DNA of 41,642 nucleotides from a virus (Duplodnaviria > Heunggongvirae > Uroviricota > Caudoviricetes), in IMG/VR virus record IMGVR_UViG_2541047897_000010. The stretch is one strand, 5' to 3'. Made by a program: the position numbers and the translations under genes. Positions 1,387 through 13,606 of this stretch are shown here, in pieces (within the stretch, counting starts at the first letter, position 1; each line of letters opens with the position of its first letter). The notes beneath the pieces were generated by a model. It worked only from the letters and a program-made list of their open reading frames with translations, did not search any database and was not told the origin of the DNA.

Positions 1387-1959
1387 TCATAATTCTGTGC
1401 TGGTGGCAGGAATTAATTTCTGCCAGATAGCGGAAACATATTTTGCCTGATGACGGGCATCGGCCAGGGCGTTGTGCCGTTCGCCATCGAAAGGCATGTC
1501 CATTTTGGGGTCGAATCCGATGGAACGCCCAAGCGTAACGATCGTGCGTACATCGTGGTCATTCCAGTATGCCCACGGGCAGATTTGTCCTGCTCGCTCG
1601 TAAGCTCCACGTAAAATTACGTTGTCGAAGGTGGCCCCGTTACCCCAGACTTTTAAATATTTTGTATTGTCTGCATGCTGATTAATGAAATGGCTCAGTT
1701 CAGAGAGTGCATCGCTGATCGACAAAGTATCATCAATACAGATTGCAGCTCGTGCTTCAGAGCTCTGTTTCAACCACCACAGGATGGTATCGCCGTCAGG
1801 TGTAGCTCCTTGCTTCATAGCACTGTCCAGGCTAACAACCGTATAGAATTCTTGTCCGATGTCTCCGGTTTCTGGAGTGAAGAACACCGCGCCAATGGAA
1901 ACGATCGGTGCATCCTTATTTTTCCCCATCGTCTCAAGGTCGATCATTAAGTTGTTCAT
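1387..1959 (-). CDS. DEDD-type 3'-5' exonuclease (DnaQ-like)
   Basis: N-terminal MIDLETMG motif (Exo I D-x-E), C-terminal H-x4-D motif region; ATG at 1959 with GAGGTGA SD. Confidence 0.6.
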   Translation of the reverse strand: MNNLMIDLETMGKNKDAPIVSIGAVFFTPETGDIGQEFYTVVSLDSAMKQGATPDGDTILWWLKQSSEARAAICIDDTLSISDALSELSHFINQHADNTKYLKVWGNGATFDNVILRGAYERAGQICPWAYWNDHDVRTIVTLGRSIGFDPKMDMPFDGERHNALADARHQAKYVSAIWQKLIPATSTEL

Positions 1960-2768
1960 CACTTCACCTCTTGTGATGGTTTTGCTGCAAAATACTCGAT
2001 ACCTTTATCCCAGATAGATTTTATGGTCGACCACGTGACTGGCACTTTAATTTCAATACGTCCGCTCCCGTCACAGGTATCGCAATCATCATCGCCAAAG
2101 CATTCCAGGCAGCTTATAAACGTAGTTTCTGAAAATTCACCGGATAGCGCCCCCTTAGCGCCGTTCTCGGCTGTTAGTCTCTTCGGCACCATAACCCAAC
2201 CATCCGGAGTTACCGGAGAGTTGCCAGACAGTGCGTTCTGCAATCGTTCCAGCTTAACGTATTCCTGAACCCTGTTTCCGTCGCACGCCTGAAGCCATTG
2301 CACAGCCTTTTGCGCATCAGTGTGAAAGGCACAAGTGCGACCGTCATCAAATTGCATTTCGTAGAGGTCAGCAACCTGTTTAAACTGCGTTTGTGGCAAC
2401 TTGTAAGCCTGGCTTGCAGGTACGGCACCATAGAGCATGGCAGCGCGGCAGGCGTTCCAGCCTTCATCAAAACCGACTATGCCATTATTTAAAGACGGAC
2501 GAGCATCTGGCACCACCGGCACTGGCTTGGCTATATATAGCGGCTGAACATACCAGCCCTTTGATAACCAACTGTCAGCAATGTTTTTACTCCTGGTTAT
2601 TGCCGGAATACCTAAGCCATTGTCTGAATGCAGCCATGCCACCGGATCCTCTTCCAGCGATGCCAGAGCAATTTCATAAGCACGGCGCTCAACATTGTCT
2701 CGCACGTCCATGCTGCTGATTCGTTCTTTGATTTCTTTAATCAGTTCTTTATCGGTAAATGTGGTCAT
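1959..2768 (-). CDS. Hypothetical phage early protein (Cys-rich C-terminus)
   Basis: 269-aa ORF, GGAG SD, start/stop overlaps with neighbours typical of an operon. Confidence 0.5.
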   Translation of the reverse strand: MTTFTDKELIKEIKERISSMDVRDNVERRAYEIALASLEEDPVAWLHSDNGLGIPAITRSKNIADSWLSKGWYVQPLYIAKPVPVVPDARPSLNNGIVGFDEGWNACRAAMLYGAVPASQAYKLPQTQFKQVADLYEMQFDDGRTCAFHTDAQKAVQWLQACDGNRVQEYVKLERLQNALSGNSPVTPDGWVMVPKRLTAENGAKGALSGEFSETTFISCLECFGDDDCDTCDGSGRIEIKVPVTWSTIKSIWDKGIEYFAAKPSQEVK

Positions 2769-3130
2769 TATGCTCCAGCCTCCGGTGCTTTTGGCATTAC
2801 TGCCCAGTGAGTGATGTTGACGTTTTCAAGGTCCCCGACCTGAAATATCCACTGCCATTCTCCGGTTTCTTTTTGCCCCCATGTATACCAGAGAGAACGC
2901 CAGCCAATCAGCCAGCCTTCTCCATTAGCATCAAATAACAGAACACTTTCATTCGCTGGCGGCAGTTCAGCTGACACTGGTATTACTTTGTTTTCCAGTG
3001 CTGCACATTTAGCTTCAAGCGCATCAAATTTACGCACCAGGTATTCAGCATCCGTTTCATTCACTTTCAGATCTCGCGGTACACATTTCCCGCGAAGAAA
3101 TCCTTCCATTTCGAAAACATTCATGCGCAT
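2768..3130 (-). CDS. DUF551-like hypothetical protein (CPS-53 YfdS-like by position and length)
   Basis: 120-aa ORF with Trp-rich C-terminal region (GWLIGW...WYTWGQ); overlapping stop/start with upstream gene. Confidence 0.5.
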   Translation of the reverse strand: MRMNVFEMEGFLRGKCVPRDLKVNETDAEYLVRKFDALEAKCAALENKVIPVSAELPPANESVLLFDANGEGWLIGWRSLWYTWGQKETGEWQWIFQVGDLENVNITHWAVMPKAPEAGA

Positions 3131-3657
3131 TTGCGTAACTCCGATAATTCGTTAAAGCGTTCCATAAACATCCCGTAGGCATGGCCTGGAGCCAGTGGAA
3201 TCACGTTGAACATCTCTGTTGCCGGGATACCTTCCAGTACAGGCCAGAAAGAGCCATCATCAAGCCCGAGATCGCGGCGTTCGGTTGCCAGCATGATGAG
3301 ATCGGCATATTTCACGGGCGTACTCATAACCGGTGGTAACCCGTATTTCTCACGGATTACGGCGTCTATTTTTTCTTCCATCCGTTTATAGTCAGGAAGA
3401 AGGCGTTTCAGTGGTGCGGGAATGTCCTGGCAATACGCTTCTGTTGCATCATGCATTAACGCTTCAAAAGCAAATTCCTGCGGCACCAGCTGGCTGCAAA
3501 GAACCGCATGTTGGGCGACGCTGTAGAAGTGCGAAAGATGACCGGCAAAGCGACAGATATTTGAAAGGGAAACCGCGATATCGTTAATATCGATGTCGTC
3601 TTTATTTATCCTGTCATAATAAAAATGCTTCCCGGAAAAAGTTTTAATAAATGACAT
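3121..3657 (-). CDS. yfdR: HD-domain phosphohydrolase (YfdR-like 5'-deoxynucleotidase)
   Basis: HD motif (ALMHDATEAY) and upstream His (FAGHLSHF); start chosen at MSFIKTF (ATG 3655-3657) giving 178 aa; ORF track extends to a GTG at 3684. Confidence 0.6.
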   Translation of the reverse strand: MSFIKTFSGKHFYYDRINKDDIDINDIAVSLSNICRFAGHLSHFYSVAQHAVLCSQLVPQEFAFEALMHDATEAYCQDIPAPLKRLLPDYKRMEEKIDAVIREKYGLPPVMSTPVKYADLIMLATERRDLGLDDGSFWPVLEGIPATEMFNVIPLAPGHAYGMFMERFNELSELRKCA

Positions 3658-3784
3658 TTTGTTTTCCACGTATATGCGCTGCACCGCGCTGAATTCTGCT
3701 AAAAAGAATCCCTCACCATCCGGTGATTATTGAGTTAATTACGTTTCCATAAATGCCCCCGCAGGGGCATTTGCAGTAATGAAA

Positions 3785-4609
3785 TCAGGCGGTGAAAGTA
3801 CCAATAAAGGTTTCTACTTTGCTGTCTTTGAATTTCTCAACAAGCAGATCACGAAATTCGTTAGCCATTTCTTCCTGCACCGCTTCCAGCTGAATAATGC
3901 GCAGAACCAGTACAGGACGATCGCCAGTGATAATGCTGAGGCGTAATTTAAACGGACGTTCTTTCAGACCTTCAAACGGAACGCATTTAAATTCAAATGC
4001 CACTGGCATAATGTCTTTGGTCTTCGCTTCGACAGACTCCATCAGGGAGCGTTTGCCGCTGAAGTCATTGTCTTCAAAATCAGCGGTCTGGTTCGCTTCA
4101 ATTGTGATTTTACGGATCGCCGCAGCCGCTTTGGTTGCCTGAATGGCGTCACCATTAGCATCAAAGCCCACAAGGTAGTCGGCCCAGTCTTCAATCCATT
4201 CTGCCAGTGACTTCTGGGAGTTACGCTCGCCATTAACAGACAACAGAGCAGAGAACGGTGCTGTCTTTTTCAGTTTGAGAGTGGCGGTGTTATCTGCGTG
4301 ACCTGGTTCATCAATAGTACCCAGGTTAAGCACACTGACGGCTCGCATATTATCGGCATCGATAAAGCAGCGGGTGCCTTCATCTGCAAGATCTTTAGAA
4401 TAACGGGTAAAGTCATCGATGCTGGCAGTGGAAAGTGCACCACGGAAACGGAAACGATTTAAATTAAATTTTTCCAGATCATGAATGCGGAAATTCTCAG
4501 GCAATGCCACAGCATCGGCACCAATCTTACTGATAATTTCATTAACACCCTGAGCAGAAATAAGGGCATGGATTTGATTAATTGCGGTTGCGTCTAAGTT
4601 CTGAGACAT
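3785..4609 (-). CDS. yfdQ: DUF2303 family protein (YfdQ-like)
   Basis: 274-aa ORF, GAGGA SD; length and sequence recalled as matching K-12 CPS-53 YfdQ. Confidence 0.55.
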
Positions 4610-4674
4610 AATAAGTCCTCACTATATAAAGATATTCAGTGATGAGATAAATAATCAGTTTATTAAGAACGATA

Positions 4675-5037
4675 TTAATGACCTGCTGCGCGGAGTTTTC
4701 CGTCAGGTTCACCGGCAAGAGTCAGTAATTGTCCCTGGTCTTCCTGCAGAATAGTCAGGCGGCCACCGCGATTGACATACATCGGCGTTTCGGTGGTGTC
4801 TTCTTCGGAAATTTTCCCGCGGTTAGTCGGGCGAACATATGAGAGTTTGTGTTTGATTTTCACACGGTTCTCATCAAATGGTTCGATTTCCAGGTTGAGC
4901 GAGACCTTACCTTTGGTTTTCGTGTTCATCACACCGGAAGCGACTTCACTGAGAACTGCGCCGATTTTGGTTTCAAATACGCCGCCGTCCAGCTCCCCGA
5001 TAAATGCCTGCACATCAGTACTGCGTTCGCTAGCCAT
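4675..5037 (-). CDS. Hypothetical early protein (YfdP-like); internal start chosen
   Basis: ATG at 5035-5037 preceded by AGGAG (7-nt spacing); 120 aa; longer ORF to 5223 lacks an SD and crosses hairpins. Confidence 0.5.
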   Translation of the reverse strand: MASERSTDVQAFIGELDGGVFETKIGAVLSEVASGVMNTKTKGKVSLNLEIEPFDENRVKIKHKLSYVRPTNRGKISEEDTTETPMYVNRGGRLTILQEDQGQLLTLAGEPDGKLRAAGH

Positions 5038-5085
5038 TTTGCTGCTCCTCATCATATCGACCCTGCAAGGTCGGTTAGTTTCTCC

Positions 5086-5174
5086 ACAAAACAGAGAAGA
5101 ACACCTGCGGTGGCAGCCGCCCGGATGGATTGGGTTATGAGCCCGTCGTCCGGTGATGCTCTTCTCTGTTTTGT
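5086..5174 (-). promoter_or_regulatory. Long RNA hairpin in early-left leader (15-bp stem ACAAAACAGAGAAGA / TCTTCTCTGTTTTGT)
   Basis: Perfect 15-bp inverted repeat 5086-5100 vs 5160-5174 with about 59-nt loop, upstream of first early-left gene. Confidence 0.4.
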
Positions 5175-5220
5175 AAAAAGAGCGGTACCAGCCGGAAGCA
5201 AGTGTACAAACTGGTACCGC
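5172..5220 (-). terminator. tL-like rho-independent terminator in the early-left leader
   Basis: 10-bp stem GCGGTACCAG/CTGGTACCGC (5182-5191, 5211-5220) followed on the minus strand by UCUUUUUA. Confidence 0.45.
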
Positions 5221-5651
5221 CAAAGCAGTGGCTGTTGTGGTGACCGGTGCTGATCTCCGGCTTGCGGTTATTTCAGACTCTCACGGGCGTTTAATTGCCC
5301 CGCCGAACAGCTCTTTTCCGCAATAGCTGCAATGTCTTTCGCGCATCAGCCTGCGCATTCACCACAACGCTGAGAGCACTTAGCCAGTTACGGCACCACA
5401 CTTTGTCGCGGTTCCATAAATGCCCTCATCGTTGCACCCTGGTCTCTTCCCAGGTGTCAAACCGAACCGCCACGCTGGTTAGGCGTCTTATCAGCATCAT
5501 CATTGACTTGCACATTCCGGCTACCTGGTTTGTTTGCCCGAGCAAGGAGTGGATTGTCCCCTTTAACGTCCCCAGACCGCTAACGACGCATGTGCCATAC
5601 GCCGTGTTACAACCAAATTTTGTTTAATCTTGCCTGTGACATGTTTCTTTT

Positions 5652-5668
5652 AGATACATTATGTATCT
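5652..5668. promoter_or_regulatory. Perfect 17-bp palindrome, candidate left operator (OL)
   Basis: AGATACAT-T-ATGTATCT just beyond the cI 3' end and terminator. Confidence 0.35.
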
Positions 5669-5688
5669 CAAGGGTACATTGTCAAGTA

Positions 5689-5712
5689 TAAAAAAACCTG
5701 CCGAAGCAGGTT
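5689..5712 (-). terminator. Rho-independent terminator of cI
   Basis: On minus strand: ACCTGC-TTCG-GCAGGT stem-loop followed by seven U; 12 nt after cI stop. Confidence 0.6.
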
Positions 5713-5723
5713 ATAAATATTGA

Positions 5724-6398
5724 TTAGGCCTTTATTTTGTATCTTCTTGGTTTTCCTGAGAAAATTACTGTACCAATTATAGAGCAATTACCGTTGATCT
5801 TAATGTAAGGTTCAGGCCAGTTTGGGTTTAATGCTTTGAGGTAACGCTGTGTTCCATCTTCTATCAACCGCTTAAAGGTGGTTTCGCCTGTATCGTGCAT
5901 CAATGCAATAACGTCGTCACCGTGGCAGGCAGGGACTTCAGGATCTACAAAAATCATGTCTCCCGGGCGGTACTCATCAATCATTGAATCACCAATCACC
6001 CGCAAGATATAAGTCATTTCGCCACAGGGTACAGGGCAGGGATAAGTTTCTGCTGTGCTCAAATCAACCTCAGAATAGCCAACTTCTTTCCATGCTCCGG
6101 CCTGTACCCATGATATGACAGGGACTAACGTTATTTGTTTGTTAGTAATTGAAACATCAGGTTTTTTTGTGATGTTTGTTGTCTGGTGTTCTTGATCAAG
6201 CCATCCGACAGGCAGGTCGAAACATTTTTCGATGTGCCGTGCCATGCTGTCACCGATATTTTTAGTAGCACCATCTCCCATAAACCTGCTGGTCTGGGTT
6301 GGCTCGCGATCAATCATGGTGGCAAAGGAAGAATTCCCGCCAACACCATCTCTCAGTTTTCTGGCGTTAGACCGCCGGATGTCATGGACTGTTTTCAT
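5724..6398 (-). CDS. cI: CI-type prophage repressor (HTH plus S24 LexA-like autopeptidase domain)
   Basis: 224 aa; C-terminal S24-like region (VIGDSM...GD.I.VD); divergent to cro-like gene. Confidence 0.75.
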   Translation of the reverse strand: MKTVHDIRRSNARKLRDGVGGNSSFATMIDREPTQTSRFMGDGATKNIGDSMARHIEKCFDLPVGWLDQEHQTTNITKKPDVSITNKQITLVPVISWVQAGAWKEVGYSEVDLSTAETYPCPVPCGEMTYILRVIGDSMIDEYRPGDMIFVDPEVPACHGDDVIALMHDTGETTFKRLIEDGTQRYLKALNPNWPEPYIKINGNCSIIGTVIFSGKPRRYKIKA

Positions 6399-6414
6399 AA
6401 CGAAATTAAAACCT

Positions 6415-6433
6415 TTGTACCGATAGGGTACAA
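6415..6433. promoter_or_regulatory. Candidate right operator palindrome
   Basis: TTGTACC-GATAG-GGTACAA inverted repeat in the cI-cro intergenic region; GGGTACA half-site also present near 5671. Confidence 0.4.
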
Positions 6434-6438
6434 GTATC

Positions 6439-6466
6439 TTGAAGGTTCATCTCAATCATGTAATAT
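6439..6466 (+). promoter_or_regulatory. Candidate PR-like promoter for cro
   Basis: -35 TTGAAG (6439-6444), 16-bp spacer, -10 TAATAT (6461-6466), about 23 nt before cro ATG. Confidence 0.35.
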
Positions 6467-6488
6467 GTATATCGGAGGTACATATTGT

Positions 6489-6689
6489 ATGAAAGCGTAT
6501 TGGGACTCTTTAACCAAAGAACAGCAGGGCGAGTTGGCCGGAAAAGTTGGCTCAACACCAGGCTACTTACGGCTGGTTTTCAATGGTTATAAAAAAGCCA
6601 GTTTTGTGCTGGCTAAAAAACTTGAGCAATGCACGTCAGGTGCAATTACGAAATCTGACTTAAGACCGGATATCTATCCGAAAGATTAA
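6489..6689 (+). CDS. cro: Cro/YdaS-like HTH regulator
   Basis: 66-aa ORF, GGAGG SD 9 nt upstream; C-terminal DLRPD motif recalled for YdaS/Cro-like family; divergent from cI. Confidence 0.6.
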   Translation: MKAYWDSLTKEQQGELAGKVGSTPGYLRLVFNGYKKASFVLAKKLEQCTSGAITKSDLRPDIYPKD

Positions 6690-6720
6690 CAGAACACCTT
6701 CAATTTTTAACCACAGAACG

Positions 6721-7284
6721 ATGAGGCTAACCGTGGGTAAGCATCACTGGAAAGTAGAAAAACAGCCTGAGTGGTACGTGAAAGCTGTCAGAAAAACTAT
6801 CGCGGCGTTGCCGGGGGGTTACGCTGAAGCTGCTGAGTGGCTGGATGTAACAGAGAACGCTTTATTCAACCGCCTTCGTGCAGATGGCGATCAGATTTTC
6901 CCGCTGGGATGGGCAATGATTTTACAGCGCGCGGCTGGCACTCACTACATTGCGGATGCTGTCGCACAGTCTGCTGGTGGGGTGTTTGTATCGCTTCCTG
7001 AAATTGAGGAAGTAGAGAACGCCGATATAAACCAGCGCCTGCTGGAAGTCATCGAACAGATCGGGAGTTACTCAAAGCAGATTCGTTCGGCAATCGAAGA
7101 TGGGGTAGTGGAGCCACACGAGCAGACAGCAATTAATGATGAGTTGTATCTGTCAATTTCGAAGCTCCAGGAGCATGCAGCACTGGTCTACAAAATCTTT
7201 TGCGCTCCAGAAAAGAGTGACGCCCGCGAGTGTGCAGCTCCGGGCGTCGTGGCGTTTTGTGTCTGTGGAGAAACTAACGCATGA
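6721..7284 (+). CDS. YdaT-like / CII-like regulatory protein (tentative)
   Basis: 187-aa ORF immediately after cro-like gene; family assignment from position and memory only. Confidence 0.4.
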   Translation: MRLTVGKHHWKVEKQPEWYVKAVRKTIAALPGGYAEAAEWLDVTENALFNRLRADGDQIFPLGWAMILQRAAGTHYIADAVAQSAGGVFVSLPEIEEVENADINQRLLEVIEQIGSYSKQIRSAIEDGVVEPHEQTAINDELYLSISKLQEHAALVYKIFCAPEKSDARECAAPGVVAFCVCGETNA

Positions 7285-8117
7285 ACAGTTTAACGGCAAA
7301 TAACCGTTTGTCGCAACAGCTGGTGGTCAGCGTCGCTGAACACCTGTTGTTACGGCATGAATGCAGATTACCAAATCACCTGGCTGTAAGTAACCACAGA
7401 GAACTTTACCTGACTGTGGGGGGCGAGTTGTGCAGGAACTTAACCGCTGGTTTCGTGACGGAAGAGGGCTTTATGTCCATGTTATTCGTTGGGAGCCAGA
7501 AACACAGCGCGTTATCTATCTTCGCAAAGACTACCCGCATGAGTGCTTTAGTCCTTTGTGGAAATTCAGGCGTGATTTTGTTGAGTGTGAAGGACCACCA
7601 GCACATTGATTCTGCCATTCCGGGACGTTACACTGTTCAGGCACCTTATAAAGCGGGTGACGGGATTGGCGTCCTGGAAATGTTATCGGCGATATATGAC
7701 GCGCCAGCGTCTTTTTTATCGTCTGTGTCTGTGCACACCCAAATTATGGTGGGCTGGACGGGGGCACCGAAAGGTGCGCCGGTTTCCGATAACGCCGGTT
7801 ACGCCAACCCCGTTCAGTTCACCACCAGCGAAATTGGCGTTTCCGGTGGTGAAGGTAATTCACTGTTATCGGAGGCTGCCATCATGGCTACTGTCCCAGC
7901 CCTCACTCGTCTGAATGATGAAGACTTACATAAACTCAGTTATGTAACAACTGCACTACGTGCTCTGCGCAAGGTAACTCTTTCGGATCCGCAGGCGCAT
8001 CAGGTTTTGGTAGAAACCCTTCTTAACTTGCAGGCTGAACGTATTCGTCTGGCGGATAAGGCTAATTTTCATATTCACCGTCTCCTGAATATCAGCGGAG
8101 GGCATCGTCATGCTTAA
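7281..8117 (+). CDS. Hypothetical early protein, no family recognised
   Basis: 278-aa ORF with ATGA stop/start overlap with upstream gene. Confidence 0.4.
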   Translation: MNSLTANNRLSQQLVVSVAEHLLLRHECRLPNHLAVSNHRELYLTVGGELCRNLTAGFVTEEGFMSMLFVGSQKHSALSIFAKTTRMSALVLCGNSGVILLSVKDHQHIDSAIPGRYTVQAPYKAGDGIGVLEMLSAIYDAPASFLSSVSVHTQIMVGWTGAPKGAPVSDNAGYANPVQFTTSEIGVSGGEGNSLLSEAAIMATVPALTRLNDEDLHKLSYVTTALRALRKVTLSDPQAHQVLVETLLNLQAERIRLADKANFHIHRLLNISGGHRHA

Positions 8118-8346
8118 TCCGTTGATCCTCAATATTTGCCGTTTGCTTCAGCGTAAAAAAACATCAATTCCTACAGTTGGGCAGTGGTACACCACGCCTG
8201 CAGGGCATGTTCTACGTGTTAGCCTGGTTGACCGTGAATGTCAGAAGGTGATTTGTGAACCGCTGGGCCGTAATTACCGCATCAGTATGCCGCTTATAGC
8301 CTTTTGCTCCGGAAAAAACATGAAGCATCTCGGAGGTGCAGCATGA
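8110..8346 (+). CDS. Hypothetical small protein
   Basis: 78-aa ORF overlapping previous stop; weak support. Confidence 0.3.
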   Translation: MLNPLILNICRLLQRKKTSIPTVGQWYTTPAGHVLRVSLVDRECQKVICEPLGRNYRISMPLIAFCSGKNMKHLGGAA

Positions 8347-9161
8347 GTATGGAGCTGATGGTTAAAGCGATGAAAATTCGAGTGGGTAATCCATTGCGAA
8401 AACTGGTTCTGATCAAGCTGGCTGATAATGCCAGCGATCAGGGTGAGTGCTGGCCCAGCTACCAGCATATTGCTGACCAGTGCGAGATTAGCAAACGTTC
8501 TGTGATGAATCATATTGCGGCCCTTTGTGATTCCGGGCTGGTAAAAAAAGTCACCCGGAAAGGTGAAAAAGGTAACTCAAGTAATATCTATCTCCTTCAT
8601 CTTGATGGTGCAGGAGATTCACTAGGGGGTAGTGCAAATAATTCACTATCTGGTGCAGCAAATTCACCAGGTAGTGCAGGAGTTGCACCAGGGGGTGGTG
8701 CAGGAGATTCACCCAGAACCAGTCACTCTTTTGAACCAGTCAAAGAACCAGTCAATGAACCAATAGCTGTTGGTGCATCAGTTGATGAGTCCGTGCGAGT
8801 TCGTTCAAACCGACCGGAATACTCTCCGGAGTTTGAGCAGGCATGGCTGGCATACCCCAAACGTGCTGGTGGCAATTCAAAATCTGCAGCCTTCAAAGCC
8901 TGGAAAGCCCGTTTGAATGAGGGGGTAAAACCCGAAACCATGCTGGAAGGTGTGAAACGCTACGCGGGCTGGGTATCTGCGATGGGTAACAGCGGCACAC
9001 AATTTGTGAAACAGGCTGTCACGTTCTTTGGTCCGGATCGTCATTTCGAAGAATCCTGGGAAGTTCCTGCGGTATCTGCAGCCAGACGCGAGGACCCGTA
9101 CTTCAAAGCCAGTTACGACAACGTGGACTACAGCCAGATCCCGGCAGGATTCAGGGGGTAA
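8343..9161 (+). CDS. Replication initiation protein with N-terminal HTH (O-like / HTH_36-type)
   Basis: ATG 8343 with GGAGG SD; N-terminal HTH-like region (LIKLADNASDQGECWPSYQHIADQCEISKRSVMNHIAAL); low-complexity central linker encoded by iteron-like repeats. Confidence 0.55.
   Translation: MSMELMVKAMKIRVGNPLRKLVLIKLADNASDQGECWPSYQHIADQCEISKRSVMNHIAALCDSGLVKKVTRKGEKGNSSNIYLLHLDGAGDSLGGSANNSLSGAANSPGSAGVAPGGGAGDSPRTSHSFEPVKEPVNEPIAVGASVDESVRVRSNRPEYSPEFEQAWLAYPKRAGGNSKSAAFKAWKARLNEGVKPETMLEGVKRYAGWVSAMGNSGTQFVKQAVTFFGPDRHFEESWEVPAVSAARREDPYFKASYDNVDYSQIPAGFRG
8607..8714. repeat. Five tandem 21-bp direct repeats (iteron-like, candidate ori)
   Basis: Repeats with core GTGCAG-A-ATTCAC at 8607, 8628, 8652, 8673, 8694 inside the O-like gene. 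Confidence 0.4.
8716..8766. repeat. 12-bp tandem repeats GAACCAGTCA (3-4 copies)
   Basis: GAACCAGTCA at 8716, 8733, 8745 and partial copy at 8757. Confidence 0.4.
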
Positions 9162-9163
9162 TC

Positions 9164-9652
9164 ATGAGTCTTTTGAATGAAGTTCAGAAATTCATTGAAG
9201 CCCATCCGGGGTGTACTTCCGGAGACATTGCAGATGCTTTTGCAGGTTACTCACGGCAGCGCGTTCTGCAGTCAGCAAGCAAGTTACGTCAGAGTGGGCG
9301 TGTGGCTCACCGTTGTGAAGGAGATACACGCAGACATTTCCCGCGCCTGACTGAGAGAGCGCAGGAGCCGGAACCACAACCAGTTCGTGAAACCAGACCT
9401 GTGCGCAATTTCTATGTCGGCACTAACGATCCCCGGGTAATTTTGTGCCTGACCCGCCAGGCTGAAGAACTGGAGTCCAGGGGCTTATACCGTCGTGCTG
9501 CAACGGTGTGGATGGCGGCATTCCGTGAAAGCCACTCCCAGCCAGAACGAAACAATTTTCTGGCGCGTCGTGAGCGGTGCTTACGGAAAAGCAGCAAGCG
9601 CGCTGTATCGGGTGAAGAGTGGTATCTGTCAGGGAATTACGTGGGGGCTTAA
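9164..9652 (+). CDS. PerC-like transcriptional regulator
   Basis: Motif AEELESRGLYRRAATVWMAAF matching the recalled PerC family signature. Confidence 0.45.
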   Translation: MSLLNEVQKFIEAHPGCTSGDIADAFAGYSRQRVLQSASKLRQSGRVAHRCEGDTRRHFPRLTERAQEPEPQPVRETRPVRNFYVGTNDPRVILCLTRQAEELESRGLYRRAATVWMAAFRESHSQPERNNFLARRERCLRKSSKRAVSGEEWYLSGNYVGA

Positions 9653-10305
9653 TGAGTAATAAATATTGCCAGGCGCTGGTGGAGCTGCGGAACAAACCAG
9701 CCCATGAACTGAAGGAAGTGGGCGATCAGTGGCGCACGCCGGATAACATTTTCTGGGGAATTAACACCCTGTTTGGCCCGTTTGTTCTGGATCTGTTCAC
9801 TGATGGTGATAACGCCAAATGTGCCGCTTATTACACTGCGGAAGACAACGCGCTGGCGCATGACTGGTCTGAACGTCTTGCGGAGCTTAAAGGTGCTGCC
9901 TTTGGTAATCCCCCGTACAGCCGCGCCAGTCAGCATGAAGGGCAATACATCACCGGCATGCGTTACATCATGAAGCATGCCAGTGCCATGCGTGATAAGG
10001 GCGGACGCTATGTTTTCCTGATCAAAGCTGCCACCAGCGAAGTGTGGTGGCCGGAAGATGCAGATCATATTGCTTTTATTCGCGGGCGTATTGGTTTTGA
10101 ACTGCCTGCCTGGTTTATCCCGAAGGACGAGAAGCAGGTGCCGACAGGCGCTTTCTTCGCTGGTGCTATTGCTGTTTTCGACAAGACCTGGAAGGGACCG
10201 GCAATCAGCTACATCGGGCGCGATGAACTTGAGGCATGTGGTGAGGCGTTTCTGGCGCAGGTTCGCCAGCAGGCAGAAAAACTGGTCAGGGAGATGGCGG
10301 CATGA
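9652..10305 (+). CDS. Phage DNA N6-adenine methyltransferase (Dam-type)
   Basis: NPPY catalytic motif (AFGNPPYS); TAATG overlap with upstream gene. Confidence 0.7.
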   Translation: MSNKYCQALVELRNKPAHELKEVGDQWRTPDNIFWGINTLFGPFVLDLFTDGDNAKCAAYYTAEDNALAHDWSERLAELKGAAFGNPPYSRASQHEGQYITGMRYIMKHASAMRDKGGRYVFLIKAATSEVWWPEDADHIAFIRGRIGFELPAWFIPKDEKQVPTGAFFAGAIAVFDKTWKGPAISYIGRDELEACGEAFLAQVRQQAEKLVREMAA

Positions 10306-10628
10306 CGACGTTAACTCAATGCCAGCAGCAGGTGCTGGATATGCTGATTTCTTATCAGAAAGAACGTGGCTTCCCGCCAACCAATCAGGAGGTGGCAACC
10401 ATGCTGGGATACCGTTCGGTGAATGCAGCGGTGGAGCATCTTCGCGCACTGGAGAAAAAAGGCGTCATCACGATAAAGCGTGGCGTGGCCCGGGGCATCA
10501 CGCTTCATACCGCGGTGAAGGACGACGGCAGCGAGGCGGTCGGGATTATCCGCGCACTGCTTGCCGGTGAGGAAAACGCCAGGCTGCGTGCAGCCCACTG
10601 GTTACATGAGAGGGGGCTGAAAGTATGA
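10302..10628 (+). CDS. LexA N-terminal DNA-binding-domain homologue lacking the S24 peptidase domain
   Basis: 108 aa; residues QQQVLDML...GFPPTNQEVA..LGYRSVNAAVEHLRALEKKGVI...RGITL align with the LexA winged-helix N-domain; no cleavage-site/Ser-Lys domain. Confidence 0.55.
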   Translation: MTTLTQCQQQVLDMLISYQKERGFPPTNQEVATMLGYRSVNAAVEHLRALEKKGVITIKRGVARGITLHTAVKDDGSEAVGIIRALLAGEENARLRAAHWLHERGLKV

Positions 10629-11014
10629 AGCTAATACTGCCTTTCCCGCCCAGCGTGAACACGTACTGGCGACACCCCAACAAAGGGGCGTTTGCTGGTA
10701 AGAGCCTGATAAGCGCGGCGGGGCGAAAATTCCAGAGCGCGGCGTGTGCAGCAATAGTTGAGCAGTTACGTCGTCTGCCAAAACCAACGTCGGCACCTGC
10801 TTCAGTGGAGATCGTGTTGTTTCCTCCGGATAACCGGATCCGCGATCTGGACAACTATAACAAGGCGCTGTTTGACGCCCTGACCCACGCGGGGGTGTGG
10901 GAAGACGACAGACAGGTGAAAAGAATGCTGGTGGAGTGGGGACCGGTTATCCCGAAAGGGAAGGTCGAGATCACTATCAGTAAGTACAAGAAAACGGCGG
11001 GTGCAGCCGCCTGA
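10625..11014 (+). CDS. rusA: RusA Holliday-junction resolvase
   Basis: 129 aa; N-terminal LPFPPSVNTYW and acidic catalytic region typical of RusA. Confidence 0.8.
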   Translation: MKLILPFPPSVNTYWRHPNKGAFAGKSLISAAGRKFQSAACAAIVEQLRRLPKPTSAPASVEIVLFPPDNRIRDLDNYNKALFDALTHAGVWEDDRQVKRMLVEWGPVIPKGKVEITISKYKKTAGAAA

Positions 11015-11033
11015 TTAAGAGGAGAAACGAAGT

Positions 11034-11843
11034 ATGAATAATCTGATGGTCATTGATGGTATTGAAGTTCGTCGTGATGCTTATGGTCGTTACAGCCTGA
11101 ACGATCTGCACAGGGCAGCCGGGGGAGAACAAAAAAACCGCCCGAAATACTGGCTCTCCAATAAGCAAACCTGTGAATTGATTGAACAACTTTTCACCGA
11201 GGGTGGAATTCCGCCTCTGGAACAAAATCAACCAGTTAGCGTCATTAATGGCGGAAATAACCAGGGGACGTATGTCTGCAAAGAACTGGTGTATGCCTAT
11301 GCAATGTGGATCAGCCCGTCATTCCATCTGAAGGTGATCCGTACTTTCGATATGGTAACCAGCGCACCGGAAAAATTATCCGGGCAGGCTGCTGACAAGA
11401 TGCAGGCTGGTGTGATTCTGCTGGACTTTATGCGTCGGGAATTAAACCTGTCTAACTCATCTGTGCTTGGGGCTTGTCAGAAACTCCAGGAGGCTGTTGG
11501 CTTACCGAATCTGGCTCCGCGCTATGCAATTGATGCTCCTGCCGATGCACCCGATGGCTCAAGTCGCCCTACGCTGTCACTGAGTGCACTGCTGAAGCAG
11601 TATGGTATCCGCCTGACGGCTAATCAGGCATATCACCAGATGGTGAAGCTGGGGATCGTCGAGCAGCGCGAACGATACAGCCGTACCGCGATTAACAACA
11701 TCAAAAAATTCTGGTCGCTGACAGCGAAAGGCTGCATGTTCGGCAAGAACATCACCAGTCCCGCAAATCCGCGCGAGACGCAGCCGCATTTCTTCGAATC
11801 CCGATTCCCTGAGCTGTTAAAGCTGCTCGATACCGTTCATTGA
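11034..11843 (+). CDS. KilA-N domain protein (possible antirepressor)
   Basis: AGGAG SD; N-terminal KilA-N-like region (YSLNDLHRAAGG...RPKYWL). Confidence 0.6.
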   Translation: MNNLMVIDGIEVRRDAYGRYSLNDLHRAAGGEQKNRPKYWLSNKQTCELIEQLFTEGGIPPLEQNQPVSVINGGNNQGTYVCKELVYAYAMWISPSFHLKVIRTFDMVTSAPEKLSGQAADKMQAGVILLDFMRRELNLSNSSVLGACQKLQEAVGLPNLAPRYAIDAPADAPDGSSRPTLSLSALLKQYGIRLTANQAYHQMVKLGIVEQRERYSRTAINNIKKFWSLTAKGCMFGKNITSPANPRETQPHFFESRFPELLKLLDTVH

Positions 11844-11844
11844 G

Positions 11845-12840
11845 GTGACCGTGAGAGCATTACTGACCCCTGAAATTGCCCCGCGTATGGGGATCGTATT
11901 GTTCAGACCCGGTTCAGAGCTGATGCCCCTGTTTATGCAGGGGCGTGTCCTGCTGGAGCCTGAGCCAGAACGTTATTCATCTTTTGCCAGTGGTGCCGTT
12001 CCGGCGGCATCACAACCGCTGGCGGATGATCCTGCTGTTCGGGCCGTGTTCCGCAATGAGGCAGTGATCCGTCGTGCTGGTGGCGTGGAATGTCTTGAAA
12101 GCTGGTTACTTCGTGAAAAAGGCTGCCAGTGGCCTCATTCCGACTGGCACAGCGAGAACATGACAACAATGCGACACGCTCCGGGCGCAATCCGTCTGTG
12201 CTGGCACTGCGATAACCAGCTGCGCGATCAGTTCACGGAACGGCTGGAATCAATGGCAACGGATAACTGTGCCCGCTGGGTGTTGTCTGTTGTGCGTCGG
12301 GATCTCGGTTTTGATGACAGTCACGTTGTGACAATGCCGGAACTGTGCTGGTGGCTGGTTCGTAATGATCTGGCGGATGCCTTACCGGAAAGCGCAGCCC
12401 GTAAGGCACTGAGATTACCGAATCCTGTTGTGCCGTCTGTCACCCGGGAAAGTGACCTTGTGCCTTCGGTTCCTGCCACCAGCATCATCCAGGATAAGGC
12501 GAAAAAGGTGCTGGCGCTGAAAGTGGATCCGGAGTCGCCGGAGTCTTTTATGTTACGCCCAAAACGTCGCCGCTGGGTTAATGAAAAGTACACGCGCTGG
12601 GTTAAGACACAGCCGTGCGCATGTTGTGGAAAGCCTGCTGATGATCCTCACCACCTGATAGGCCACGGTCAGGGGGGAATGGGTACAAAAGCGCATGACC
12701 TCTTTGTGTTGCCTTTGTGCAGAAAGCATCACGACGAGCTGCATGCGGATACCGTGGCATTTGAAGAGAAGTATGGCTCCCAGCTGGAGCTGATATTTCG
12801 TTTTATCGATCGTGCGCTGGCAATAGGCGTACTGGCGTAA
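11845..12840 (+). CDS. DUF968-domain protein (HNH-like Cys/His C-terminus)
   Basis: C-terminal CACCGKPADDPHHLIGHG...CRKHHDELH; start uncertain (GTG 11845 or 11851). Confidence 0.5.
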   Translation: MTVRALLTPEIAPRMGIVLFRPGSELMPLFMQGRVLLEPEPERYSSFASGAVPAASQPLADDPAVRAVFRNEAVIRRAGGVECLESWLLREKGCQWPHSDWHSENMTTMRHAPGAIRLCWHCDNQLRDQFTERLESMATDNCARWVLSVVRRDLGFDDSHVVTMPELCWWLVRNDLADALPESAARKALRLPNPVVPSVTRESDLVPSVPATSIIQDKAKKVLALKVDPESPESFMLRPKRRRWVNEKYTRWVKTQPCACCGKPADDPHHLIGHGQGGMGTKAHDLFVLPLCRKHHDELHADTVAFEEKYGSQLELIFRFIDRALAIGVLA

Positions 12841-12853
12841 GTGGAGAACGAGC

Positions 12854-13606
12854 ATGAACCTTGAAGCCTTACCAAAATATTACTCCCCAAAATCTCCAAA
12901 ACTGAGCGATGACGCACCGGCGACAGGCTCGGGTGGTTTAACGATTACGGATGTGATGGCTGCGCAGGGGATGGTGCAGTCGAAAGCACCGCTTGGGTTT
13001 GCCTTATTTCTGGCAAAAGTTGGTGTTCAGGATCCTCAGTTTGCGATTGAAGGTCTGCTCAATTACGCGATGGCACTGGATAACCCGACATTGAACAAAT
13101 TGAGTGAAGAAACCCGGTTACAGATCATCCCTTACCTTGTGAATTTTGCCTTTGCTGATTATTCCAGGTCTGCGGCAAGTAAGGCTCGCTGTGGGCATTG
13201 TGCTGGTACTGGATTTCATAATGTATTGCGCGAAGTGGTGAAACACTACAGACGCGGGGAATCTGTTATCAAGGAAGAGTGGGTGAAGGAACTATGTCAG
13301 CATTGCCATGGTAAGGGAGAAGTCAGCACAGCGTGCAGAGGGTGTAAGGGTAAAGGTATTGTCCTGGATGAAAAAAGGACCCGGCTTCATGGCACGCCTG
13401 TTTATAAGATTTGTGGGCGTTGCAATGGAAACCGGTTTAGCCGTTTACCAACCACACTGGCGCGGCATCATGTCCAGAAGCTGGTACCAGACCTGACGGA
13501 TTATCAGTGGTACAAAGGATATGCAGATGTCATTGATAAACTGGTGACAAAGTGCTGGCAGGAAGAAGCATATGCTGAGGCGCAATTAAGAAAAGTGACG
13601 AGATAA
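12854..13606 (+). CDS. Late-gene antiterminator Q-like protein
   Basis: Multiple CxxC/HxxC zinc-binding pairs (CGHCAGTG, CQHCHGKG, CRGCKGKG, CGRCNGN); position before lysis genes and PR'-like promoter/terminator. Confidence 0.6.
   Translation: MNLEALPKYYSPKSPKLSDDAPATGSGGLTITDVMAAQGMVQSKAPLGFALFLAKVGVQDPQFAIEGLLNYAMALDNPTLNKLSEETRLQIIPYLVNFAFADYSRSAASKARCGHCAGTGFHNVLREVVKHYRRGESVIKEEWVKELCQHCHGKGEVSTACRGCKGKGIVLDEKRTRLHGTPVYKICGRCNGNRFSRLPTTLARHHVQKLVPDLTDYQWYKGYADVIDKLVTKCWQEEAYAEAQLRKVTR

What the first reader, a model, noticed from the sequence alone, without database searches (positions are those of the whole stretch)
8607..8766. Iteron-like direct repeats inside the O-like replication gene: probable origin
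There are five tandem 21-bp repeats (core GTGCAG-A-ATTCAC) followed by three to four 12-bp repeats (GAACCAGTCA) inside the reading frame of the HTH replication protein, where they encode a Gly/Ser/Ala-rich linker. Lambda-type phages place ori iterons inside gene O, so this is a plausible ori. Alternatively the repeats only encode a flexible linker.
Basis: partly seen in the sequence, partly recalled or inferred. Interest (0 to 1): 0.4.

Follow-up and report, generated by a model that had tools for sequence, protein, structure and literature searches.

The report
Predicted phage origin inside its initiator gene
The repeats are real and almost certainly the DNA sites where this prophage's replication protein binds to start copying the phage genome; next to them lies a 31-base DNA block kept unchanged in related phages of many bacterial genera.

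Summary
Confirmed. Inside the 272-aa replication-initiator gene (8343-9161, +) lie five 15-bp dyad-symmetric units, GTGCA-N5-T(T/G)CAC, at 8608, 8632, 8653, 8674 and 8698 (spacings 24/21/21/24). They are followed by CC-AGAACCAGTCAC-TCTTTT-GAACCAGTCAA plus one more exact and one degenerate GAACCAGTCA copy.

Every relative examined has the same layout: an N-terminal winged-helix domain, then 1-9 palindromic units 21-24 bp apart. Unit sequences differ between phages and track the recognition helix.

Selection acts on the DNA, not the peptide. Against Aeromonas phage AsXd-1, third-codon positions in iterons plus block are 96% identical while amino acids are only 70%. In the folded N-domain the figures are 47% and 84%. 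AlphaFold2 predicts this stretch as a disordered linker.

The GAACCAGTCA repeats are not ordinary iterons. They belong to a block fixed at synonymous sites across Gammaproteobacteria, whatever the iteron type or C-terminal domain.

Differences from lambda: the initiator is HTH_36, not Phage_rep_O; there is no helicase loader gene; there is no strongly AT-rich tract. This is a known kind of feature in an unstudied variant.

The parts
8343..9161 (+). Replication initiator gene (272 aa). The ATG overlaps the stop of the upstream ORF (ATGA), with GGAGG 5 nt upstream.
   Evidence: Pfam HTH_36 at aa 17-67 (2.8e-11); PHROG 270 'replication initiation protein' (2.4e-88). About 98% identical to SfV orf39 'replication protein'.
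8343..8606 (+). Coding region for the N-terminal winged-helix DNA-binding domain (aa 1-88). The predicted recognition helix is aa 51-64 (KRSVMNHIAALCDS).
   Evidence: AlphaFold2 pLDDT 78-92, helices 3-11, 17-29, 40-47 and 51-64, plus a beta hairpin 67-85; generic winged-helix structural matches, including the DnaD N-domain 2v79.
8560..8607 (.). Least stable (most AT-rich) duplex segment of the gene, immediately left of the iterons. A candidate unwinding flank, but weak.
   Evidence: 30-mer stacking energy about -34 kcal/mol, against a window mean of -41.5 (sd 3.6); across the family, the 36 nt on the left are 63% AT versus 51% in the N-domain (Wilcoxon p = 3e-5). The conserved Asn/Ser/Tyr/Leu codons there partly explain this.
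8608..8622 (+). Iteron 1: GTGCA-GGAGA-TTCAC
8632..8646 (+). Iteron 2: GTGCA-AATAA-TTCAC
8653..8667 (+). Iteron 3: GTGCA-GCAAA-TTCAC
8674..8688 (+). Iteron 4: GTGCA-GGAGT-TGCAC (perfect 5-N5-5 palindrome)
8689..8697 (.). Nine-bp spacer CAGGGGGTG between the last two iterons. The 24-bp last spacing and a G5 or C5 run are conserved across the family.
   Evidence: of 130 distinct contexts, 103 have a G5 or C5 run in this spacer. In 121 of 130, the 15-mer exactly 24 bp upstream shares its arms with the last iteron (at most 2 of 10 mismatches).
8698..8712 (+). Iteron 5: GTGCA-GGAGA-TTCAC, abutting the conserved block
8713..8743 (+). Family-wide conserved DNA block CC-AGAACCAGTCAC-TCTTTT-GAACCAGTCAA. 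It holds two direct GAACCAGTCA copies 17 bp apart and encodes RTSHSFEPVK.
   Evidence: 94.5% same-codon use, versus 40.3% in the N-domain, among 13 protein-selected homologues; the exact pattern occurs in at least 120 viral contigs and 86 genome loci of many gammaproteobacterial genera; third-position identity.
8745..8766 (+). Extra GAACCAGTCAA copy (8745-8755) and degenerate GAACCAATAG (8757-8766). These are lineage-specific extensions of the block, encoding EPVNEPIA.
   Evidence: The copy number of this unit varies between relatives: EPVKEPVKEPVNEP in P0018 and a single EPV unit in many others.
8769..9161 (+). Coding region for the C-terminal helical domain (aa 143-272). It is exchangeable between family members and is presumed to contact the replication machinery.
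   Evidence: PHROGs 26426, 3729 and 1701 ('DnaD-like helicase loader'); the same domain is joined to other N-domains; homologues are annotated YdaU/DUF1376; no Pfam or NCBIfam hit; helices 162-229, pLDDT 55-77.

Best explanation
The segment 8608-8755 is the replication origin of this lambdoid prophage, embedded in the linker-coding part of its own initiator gene.

Shown by sequence and comparison:
- Five 15-bp dyad-symmetric sites (GTGCA-N5-T(T/G)CAC) sit two helical turns apart (21-24 bp), so all lie on roughly one face of the DNA.
- They are under DNA-level rather than peptide-level selection.
- They co-vary with the recognition helix of the N-terminal winged-helix domain.
- They are inherited together with that domain.

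Inferred, by analogy with lambda O:
- Dimers of the N-domain bind each site and assemble a wrapped nucleoprotein complex.
- This complex stresses the adjacent DNA so that it opens. Opening could occur at the conserved block CC-AGAACCAGTCAC-TCTTTT-GAACCAGTCAA on the right, or at the AT-richer flank 8560-8607 on the left.
- The exchangeable C-terminal domain, tethered by the disordered linker that the origin itself encodes, brings in the helicase. This phage has no helicase, loader or primase gene, so that must be host DnaB with DnaC.

The last two iterons, with their invariant 24-bp spacing, and the block together look like the origin core. The block does not depend on initiator specificity. 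It therefore probably serves a step common to the whole family, such as unwinding, helicase entry or host-factor binding.
For: Repeats and their non-randomness.

Gene identity and position in the early-right operon (cI, CII..., rep..., RusA, Q).

Same layout with different unit sequences in all 16 fetched phage relatives with a readable linker. These include distant relatives that lack the block (Vibrio D80, Halomonas QHHSV-1, mEp013).

Geometry: 523 of about 575 spacings are 21-24 bp. The last spacing is 24 bp in 121 of 130 contexts, and the last iteron's arms are complementary at 4-5 of 5 positions in 108 of 130.

DNA-level selection. Against AsXd-1, iterons plus block show 88.7% nucleotide, 95.7% third-position and 70% amino-acid identity. 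The N-domain shows 75.7%, 47% and 84%. Same-codon use is 94.5% in the block versus 40.3% in the N-domain. Among 30 same-length array variants from 80 near-identical contigs, 6 of 75 iteron positions are polymorphic versus 22 of 72 elsewhere (Fisher p = 6e-4).

Helix to half-site classes:
- xRSV(M/I/Q)NH goes with GTG(C/A/T)A
- KRSVMRH and KRTAMRH go with GTGAC
- RSTVKxH goes with GGGC(A/G)
- xxAVRxH goes with TGCC(A/G)

Disordered linker.

The recombinant P0061 carries the Min27-type N-domain and GGGCA iterons, joined at the block to this window's C-domain.

A 28-kb circular Arsenophonus replicon with ParM partition genes has a family member with GTGAC repeats and a diverged block, followed by an ATP-binding protein gene; MOB-suite types the plasmid rep_cluster_2302, and I did not check the rest of the record for other replication genes.

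Precedent: oriLambda, with its iterons, lies in the middle of gene O, and two iterons plus the adjacent region are the minimal unwinding unit (PMC7466680). P22 and L gene 18 also contain repeats taken as the origin (PMC8022706).
Against: No experiment exists for any family member. PMC12315714 states that lambdoid phages with only an O-like gene have not been studied and that their replication is not understood.

There is no strongly AT-rich tract like lambda's. The block is 58% AT, and the left flank of about 67% AT is partly explained by its amino-acid content. The unwinding site is therefore not identified.

Salmonella phage SF6, deposited as a phage genome, and prophage Stx2_16002 carry only one unit next to the block. 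Natural variants of this very protein have 1 or 2 units (P0042, P0028). A multi-site array is therefore not obligatory everywhere.

The helix/half-site correlation could partly reflect simple linkage of neighbouring sequences.

The sets were selected by the block pattern itself. They cannot be used to measure how conserved the block is.
Confidence: 0.75

Rival explanations
1. The protein binds the repeats, but they act as control sites and not as the start site. They could mediate autoregulation of the early-right transcript, titration, or 'handcuffing' copy control. Unwinding and initiation would happen elsewhere in the genome.
For: The dyad symmetry of each unit resembles operators. In iteron plasmids, inverted repeats bound by Rep dimers are typically autoregulatory (established knowledge). 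No clear unwinding element was found next to the array. Single iteron-like sites also occur at 7430 and 7849.
Against: No other repeat cluster appears in the window. The array keeps a fixed register with a DNA-level conserved block. Lambda iterons are dyad-symmetric too, yet are origin sites (PMC7466680). The three isolated matches outside the array are too few to argue for a second binding cluster.
Confidence: 0.1
2. The repeats have no DNA-level role. They arose by replication slippage and persist only because they encode a tolerated, flexible low-complexity linker between two domains.
For: AlphaFold2 predicts aa 91-157 as disordered. Copy number varies from 1 to 9 in otherwise near-identical proteins, as expected for slippage-prone repeats.
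Against: In this stretch, third-codon positions are conserved at 96% while amino acids are at 70%, the reverse of the folded domains. The peptide composition is not conserved across the family, but the dyad symmetry, 15-bp unit and 21-24 bp phasing are. Iteron positions are less polymorphic than the spacers.
Confidence: 0.05
3. This rival concerns the GAACCAGTCA block only. It is conserved as a module-boundary 'linker' that promotes homologous recombination between initiator N- and C-domain modules, or because of another overlapping code such as a frameshift signal. It would not be a functional origin element.
For: The block sits exactly where C-terminal domains are swapped. The natural recombinant P0061 has its junction there. 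In the +1 frame, a TGA lies within TTTTGAAC, so a shift would end translation after the N-domain plus linker (reading).
Against: Synonymous sites are fixed from Haemophilus to Pseudomonas while the flanking codons are saturated. That needs strong direct purifying selection, which second-order selection for recombinability is unlikely to give. The block keeps an invariant 2-bp distance from the last iteron (CC in 125 of 130 contexts). No slippery heptamer is present.
Confidence: 0.15

Closest known systems
[quoted passage not shown]
   Same: The origin lies in the middle of the initiator gene, in the part that encodes the inter-domain linker. There are several roughly 20-bp dyad-symmetric initiator sites about two helical turns apart. 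The N-domain binds the iterons, and the C-domain is exchangeable and contacts the helicase system. Iteron number varies between relatives (4 versus 6). The two iterons nearest the adjacent element form the core.
   Different: The initiator here is HTH_36 / DnaD_N-like, not Pfam Phage_rep_O. No P-type loader or helicase gene follows. There is no roughly 80% AT tract; a 31-bp block fixed at the DNA level across genera takes that place.
Predicted origins in P22 gene 18 and phage L gene 18 (PMC8022706)
   Same: Repeats inside the initiator gene are taken as the origin by sequence inspection, with different repeat sequences for different initiators.
   Different: Those phages also encode a DnaB-type helicase (gene 12). 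The phage L repeats are 11-bp direct repeats, not 15-bp palindromes.
Lambdoid phages with a one-gene replication module ('LLS functional type', PMC12315714)
   Same: The window has only an O-like gene between cI and Q. Its early-left operon has yfbR- and yfdQ-like genes. That paper relates ST64B, whose initiator gene is 87% identical to the window's, to LLS through its early-left operon.
   Different: That paper does not describe an origin and says replication of this type is not understood. I did not verify that the LLS initiator belongs to this exact family.
Iteron-type plasmid origins (RepE/F, pi/R6K, TrfA/RK2, RepA/pPS10); established knowledge
   Same: A winged-helix initiator binds phased repeats next to an opening region. 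A family member sits in a circular 28-kb Arsenophonus replicon with ParM partition genes.
   Different: Plasmid iterons are direct repeats bound by monomers and lie outside the rep gene. They usually come with DnaA boxes and AT-rich 13-mers, none of which was seen here.
DnaD-like 'replisome organiser' initiators of Gram-positive phages, such as SPP1 G38P with oriL inside gene 38; recalled from my own knowledge, not tested here
   Same: The N-terminal winged helix is related to the DnaD N-domain (Pfam DnaD_N 8e-5, below its cut-off; Foldseek hit 2v79). The origin repeats lie inside the initiator gene.
   Different: Different hosts and partner proteins. No sequence-level membership was shown.

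Membership tests
Lambda-type origin embedded in the initiator gene | Several initiator-binding repeats with internal dyad symmetry, inside the initiator ORF between its two domains | tested here: met
   Five GTGCA-N5-T(T/G)CAC units at 8608-8712, in frame between the N-domain (aa 1-88) and the C-domain (aa 143-272).
Lambda-type origin embedded in the initiator gene | A strongly AT-rich unwinding tract directly next to the iterons | tested here: inconclusive
   The left flank 8560-8607 is about 67% AT and is the least stable part of the gene. The block on the right is 58% AT. Nothing approaches lambda's tract.
Lambda-type origin embedded in the initiator gene | Initiator belongs to the lambda O protein family (Pfam Phage_rep_O) | tested here: not met
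   Pfam gives only HTH_36 (2.8e-11) and a sub-threshold DnaD_N match, and no Phage_rep_O hit at E <= 0.01. PHROG labels such as 'O-like' are only names.
Lambda-type origin embedded in the initiator gene | Phage-encoded helicase loader (P) or helicase next to the initiator | tested here: not met
   The next genes are PerC-like, Dam, a LexA DNA-binding domain protein and RusA. None of the ten further ORFs of 187 aa or more between window 1387 and 19119 that I scanned against PHROGs is a helicase, loader or primase, and the genes beside rep are not either. Phage 2H10, with the same module, has none in its whole genome.
Lambda-type origin embedded in the initiator gene | Iteron sequence co-varies with the initiator's DNA-binding domain among relatives | tested here: met
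   About five half-site classes match recognition-helix classes across 46 helix variants. Linkage may contribute to this.
Lambda-type origin embedded in the initiator gene | The initiator binds the repeats, and the segment supports replication | not testable with these tools
   This needs EMSA or footprinting and an origin-cloning assay. No published data were found for any member.
Iteron-plasmid origins (Rep_3 / RepE-like) | Direct, non-palindromic 17-22-bp iterons outside the rep gene, with DnaA boxes | tested here: not met
   The units are palindromic and lie inside the gene. No TTATCCACA-like box was seen in 8300-9200 by eye. Pfam gave no plasmid Rep family at E <= 0.01.
HTH_36 phage initiator family with the conserved RTSHSFEPV block | N-terminal MSMxLMxKAM...KVGNPLRKLVLIKLADNA winged helix, then palindromic repeats, then CC-AGAACCAGTCAC-N6-GAACCAGTCA | tested here: met
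   The window matches all three features. I define this grouping here; it is not a curated family.

The most novel reading that the evidence does not exclude
The 31-bp block CC-AGAACCAGTCAC-TCTTTT-GAACCAGTCAA is a previously undescribed universal origin core. It would serve as an unwinding site, a helicase-entry site or a host-factor site, independent of initiator specificity. It is shared by a Gammaproteobacteria-wide family of phage and phage-plasmid replicons.

Together with the last two iterons, it would let a single phage protein recruit the host DnaB system with no phage-encoded loader. That would explain how 'O-only' lambdoid phages replicate.
Probability: 0.4. Interest if true: 0.65.

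Novelty: new variant of a known kind. Interest (0 to 1): 0.45.

Why it matters
Origins embedded in initiator genes are textbook for lambda. This initiator family is very common: 5583 homologues at E <= 1e-10, and a DNA match to the gene in about half of complete E. coli genomes (full-length in 897 of 5426). It occurs in SfV, ST64B, Stx2c-converting phages and the K-12 CPS-53 remnant, yet it has no experimentally defined origin.

A 2025 survey says replication of lambdoid phages with only an O-like gene is not understood. The analysis here gives:
- precise, testable binding sites;
- a predicted code linking recognition helix to half-site, for example N56R should switch GTGCA to GTGAC;
- a compact candidate core for origin cloning.

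It also gives a clean example of a coding stretch where selection acts on the DNA and the peptide is a passenger. The ultraconserved block is a ready handle for finding such origins in prophages and phage-plasmids of many genera.

Tried and rejected
Literature. Full-text searches for the sequences GAACCAGTCA, AGAACCAGTCAC and TSHSFEP found only unrelated primer lists. Searches linking iterons with SfV, ST64B, mEp460, ZF40 or Aaphi23 found nothing relevant. The SfV genome paper is not held. The 'Eru' Stx-phage replication paper does not mention iterons.

Known-family searches.
- PDB by sequence: no significant hit.
- Foldseek against PDB: only generic winged helices, E about 0.03.
- Pfam and NCBIfam for the C-domain: nothing.
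- Rfam over the whole window: nothing at this locus.
- Sigma-70 promoter scan of 8000-9400: none. One terminator-like hairpin on the minus strand at 8551-8566 is at chance level.

Looking for a lambda-like AT-rich unwinding tract gave only modest enrichment.

Reading the block by eye against the DnaA box, IHF, Fis and oriC 13-mer consensus sequences gave no convincing match. This was not a formal test.

The search for related loci with the N-domain returned only 99-100% identical copies. It therefore served for copy-number and polymorphism counts, not for distant sampling.

My first ORF extraction around the block used the wrong frame and was redone.

Full report
**1. The observation**

The ORF 8343-9161 (+) starts at an ATG that overlaps the stop of the upstream ORF, with a GGAGG 5 nt upstream. 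It encodes 272 aa. Pfam HTH_36 matches aa 17-67 (2.8e-11), DnaD_N matches weakly, and PHROG 270 'replication initiation protein' matches at 2.4e-88.

Inside it, GTGCANNANNTTCAC (at most 1 mismatch) occurs at 8608, 8632, 8653, 8674 and 8698. Only 0.88 matches are expected in the whole window. The spacing is 24/21/21/24, not a uniform 21. Each unit is a 5-N5-5 imperfect palindrome: the arms GTGCA and T(T/G)CAC are nearly invariant, while the centre varies. This is why Tandem Repeats Finder scores the array poorly.

GAACCAGTCA occurs exactly at 8716, 8733 and 8745, with a degenerate copy at 8757.

**2. Context**

The order of genes is:
- CI-like repressor (5724-6398, minus strand)
- CII/CP76 (6721-7284)
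- an Ash/immunity-type region (7281-8117)
- a small ORF (8110-8346)
- the initiator
- a PerC/YfdN-like gene, Dam, a LexA DNA-binding-domain protein and RusA
- a regulator, an HNH protein, Q (12854-13606), lysis genes and terminase

The ORFs I scanned between window 1387 and 19119 include no helicase, loader or primase gene. Phage 2H10, which shares the module at 99.5%, has none in its whole genome.

The module is about 98% identical in SfV (orf39 'replication protein'), mEp460, Ayreon and Stx2c-converting phages. Matches to the gene occur in 2718 of 5426 complete E. coli genomes, covering at least 80% of it in 897. No record that I opened annotates an origin.

A 2025 paper notes that 34 of 314 lambdoid phages encode only an O homologue. 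It says none has been studied and that their replication 'is not yet understood' (PMC12315714).

**3. Relatives all have the same layout with different repeats**

tblastn found 269 phage records. The family is mosaic. A conserved N-domain (50-60% identity) is joined to different C-domains and different partner genes:
- DnaB-like helicase in V039C and ZF40
- primase-helicase in SF6, S135 and Min27
- a P-like loader in S1249
- none here

.

In every one, tandem units follow the N-domain directly, but the unit differs:
- GGGCA-GGAGC-TGCCC in Min27
- GTGAC-N5-GTCAC in Vibrio D160
- TGCCA-N5-TGGCA in klb_E
- TGCCG...AGCA in S135 and ZF40
- TGCCA-GCAGA-TAGCA, four times, in S1249

The encoded peptides are unrelated in composition (GAGDS, GGAGAA, PSDRMSP, PPMPSDG, PVPPKST, GMPADST). 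The 15-bp dyad unit and the 21-24 bp phasing are nevertheless kept; 523 of about 575 measured spacings fall in that range.

More distant relatives also carry GTGAC/GTCAC palindromes after the N-domain. These are Vibrio D80 (29% identity), Halomonas QHHSV-1 and mEp013.

**4. Selection is on the DNA**

Compare the window with Aeromonas phage AsXd-1:

| Region | Nucleotide identity | Third-position identity | Amino-acid identity |
|---|---|---|---|
| N-domain | 75.7% | 47% | 84% |
| Iterons + block (141 nt) | 88.7% | 95.7% | 70% |

The second pattern is the reverse of ordinary protein-coding selection.

Among 80 contigs with a 99-100% identical N-domain, 78 have five units. Across the 30 distinct arrays of modal length, polymorphic sites are 6 of 75 inside the 15-mers and 22 of 72 elsewhere (Fisher p = 6e-4).

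AlphaFold2 predicts aa 1-90 as a winged helix (pLDDT 78-92, recognition helix 51-64). It predicts aa 91-157 as unstructured (pLDDT 30-46) and aa 162-229 as helical. The repeats therefore lie where the protein tolerates almost any sequence.

**5. Specificity**

The first seven residues of the recognition helix sort with the half-site:
- KRSVMNH, ERSVQNH, RRSVINH and RRSAINH go with GTG(C/A/T)A
- KRSVMRH (Erwinia, Izhakiella) and KRTAMRH (Vibrio D160) go with GTGAC
- RSTVK(L/V/S)H goes with GGGC(A/G)
- K(S/T)AVRxH, KTSVRNH and KASARTH go with TGCC(A/G) or TAGCA
- RSTVR(K/R)H goes with TAGGC / TGCTT

Because helix and sites are about 100 bp apart, linkage alone could produce some of this. The stronger points are these. 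All units of one array share arms. The arms are self-complementary. The recombinant P0061 carries the Min27-type N-domain together with GGGCA units, fused to this window's C-domain.

**6. The GAACCAGTCA repeats are something else**

They are part of a block, CC-AGAACCAGTCAC-TCTTTT-GAACCAGTCAA, that abuts the last iteron.

In 13 homologues chosen by protein similarity only, residues that are identical use the same codon in 94.5% of pairs inside the block. In the N-domain the figure is 40.3%. AGA, AGT, TCT, CCA and GTC are fixed.

Scanning for GAACCAGTCAC-N6-GAACCAGTCA found at least 120 viral contigs and 86 genome loci. The genera include Pseudomonas, Xenorhabdus, Photorhabdus, Shewanella, Marinomonas, Microbulbifer, Vibrio, Haemophilus, Erwinia, Providencia and Proteus. 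Where the gene could be read, nearly all were at the same place in the same kind of gene (the one clear exception is a Pirellulaceae MAG hit with no N-domain). These two sets were selected by the pattern, so they show distribution, not conservation.

Geometry is fixed across 130 distinct contexts:
- 'CC' separates the last iteron from AGA in 125.
- The previous iteron lies exactly 24 bp upstream in 121.
- The 9-bp spacer contains a G5 or C5 run in 103.

The block does not depend on iteron class or on the C-domain. It is also where domains are swapped.

I could not identify what binds it. I found no DnaA-box, IHF or promoter match (and inspection), no hairpin, and only 58% AT.

In lambda, the two iterons next to the AT-rich tract are the minimal unwinding unit (PMC7466680). 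The conserved 'last two iterons plus block' looks like the counterpart of that unit.

**7. Points against, and open points**

- There is no strongly AT-rich tract. The least stable DNA in the gene is 8560-8609, left of the array. Across the family, AT content is 63% in the left flank, 44% in the iterons, 58% in the block, and 54% in the next 40 nt.
- Salmonella phage SF6, deposited as a phage genome, and Stx2_16002 have a single unit.
- Variants of this very protein have 1, 2, 7, 8 or 9 units.
- One variant, P0038, has lost the last unit and the block.
- Nothing here shows binding or origin firing.

**8. Comparison and verdict**

In function this is a lambda-style origin inside its initiator gene. 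That principle is established for lambda, and the repeats in P22 and L gene 18 are read the same way (PMC8022706). In membership it differs: the initiator is not in the Phage_rep_O family, there is no loader gene, and there is no AT tract.

A circular 28-kb Arsenophonus element with ParM partition genes carries a family member with GTGAC repeats and a diverged block, followed by an ATP-binding protein gene. This is consistent with autonomous replication from such a module.

I rate the origin interpretation at 0.75. I call it a new variant of a known kind, of moderate interest. The most interesting part is the DNA-level ultraconserved block and what it implies for 'O-only' lambdoid phages.

Noticed in passing
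window 7641-7717 and 7742-7829 (+): Rfam gathering-level hits to isrK (55.4 bits) and C4 antisense RNA (82.8 bits). Both lie inside the mechanical 278-aa ORF 7281-8117, whose aa 117-210 match Pfam Phage_ASH; this is SfV 'orf37 immunity region'. It looks like a P1/P7 immI-type or Gifsy isrK-type regulatory RNA module just upstream of the initiator. The 5' part of the long ORF may be spurious.
   Followed up: no
window 1387-13606: Between the repressor and Q there is only one replication gene. The early-left arm has a DnaQ-like exonuclease, a YfbR-like 5'-nucleotidase and a YfdQ-like protein, but no Red/Erf-type recombination module. This fits the 'LLS functional type' of PMC12315714.
   Followed up: partly
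proteins P0001, P0002, P0024, P0028, P0042; locus L002 1501-2385; L033: Natural variants of the same initiator (87-92% overall identity, the differences being almost all inserted or deleted repeat units) carry 1, 2, 7, 8 or 9 iterons instead of 5. Whole 66-90 bp blocks of units are duplicated or deleted in frame. The 2-unit form was seen on 64 contigs.
   Followed up: partly
protein P0061: A natural recombinant. It has the Min27-type N-domain with its GGGCA-type repeats, joined at the RTYHSFEPV block to the C-domain of this window's protein. The conserved block is the crossover point.
   Followed up: partly
protein P0038: A variant with an in-frame deletion that removes the last iteron and the whole block (...GSAGVAPG|VGASADES...). 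The break apparently falls between the GGTGCA repeats at 8696 and 8771. Seen on 3 contigs. It may be a defective prophage, or a natural test of whether the block is essential.
   Followed up: no
L010 (Salmonella phage SF6) 1501-2133; L007 (Stx2_16002): These relatives have a single GGGCA-GGAGC-TGACC unit next to the block and are followed by a large primase-helicase gene. Either one site is enough when the phage brings its own helicase, or their origin lies elsewhere.
   Followed up: no
window 7430-7444 (+) and 7849-7863 (-): Two isolated iteron-like sites, GTGCAGGAACTTAAC and GTGAATTACCTTCAC; the second has perfect GTGAA/TTCAC arms. They lie 0.75-1.2 kb upstream of the array, inside the Ash/immunity region. 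Their number is too small to judge.
   Followed up: no
L306 (Arsenophonus nasoniae plasmid paNv_CH13) 3507-4280: A 28-kb circular element with ParM/ParR partition genes carries a family member. It has GGTGACAAAAA(C/T)GACA repeats, a GGTGACAC-A-GTGTCACC palindrome and a diverged block (AGAACCAGTCAT-AAAATA-GAACC). An ATP-binding (loader-like) gene follows. About ten such Arsenophonus plasmids match.
   Followed up: partly
window 8769-9161: The C-terminal domain has no Pfam or NCBIfam model hit. It recurs behind unrelated N-domains in other phages (Tritos 'replisome organiser', Bcep22-like Burkholderia phages, several Stx phages). Some homologues are annotated YdaU/DUF1376.
   Followed up: partly
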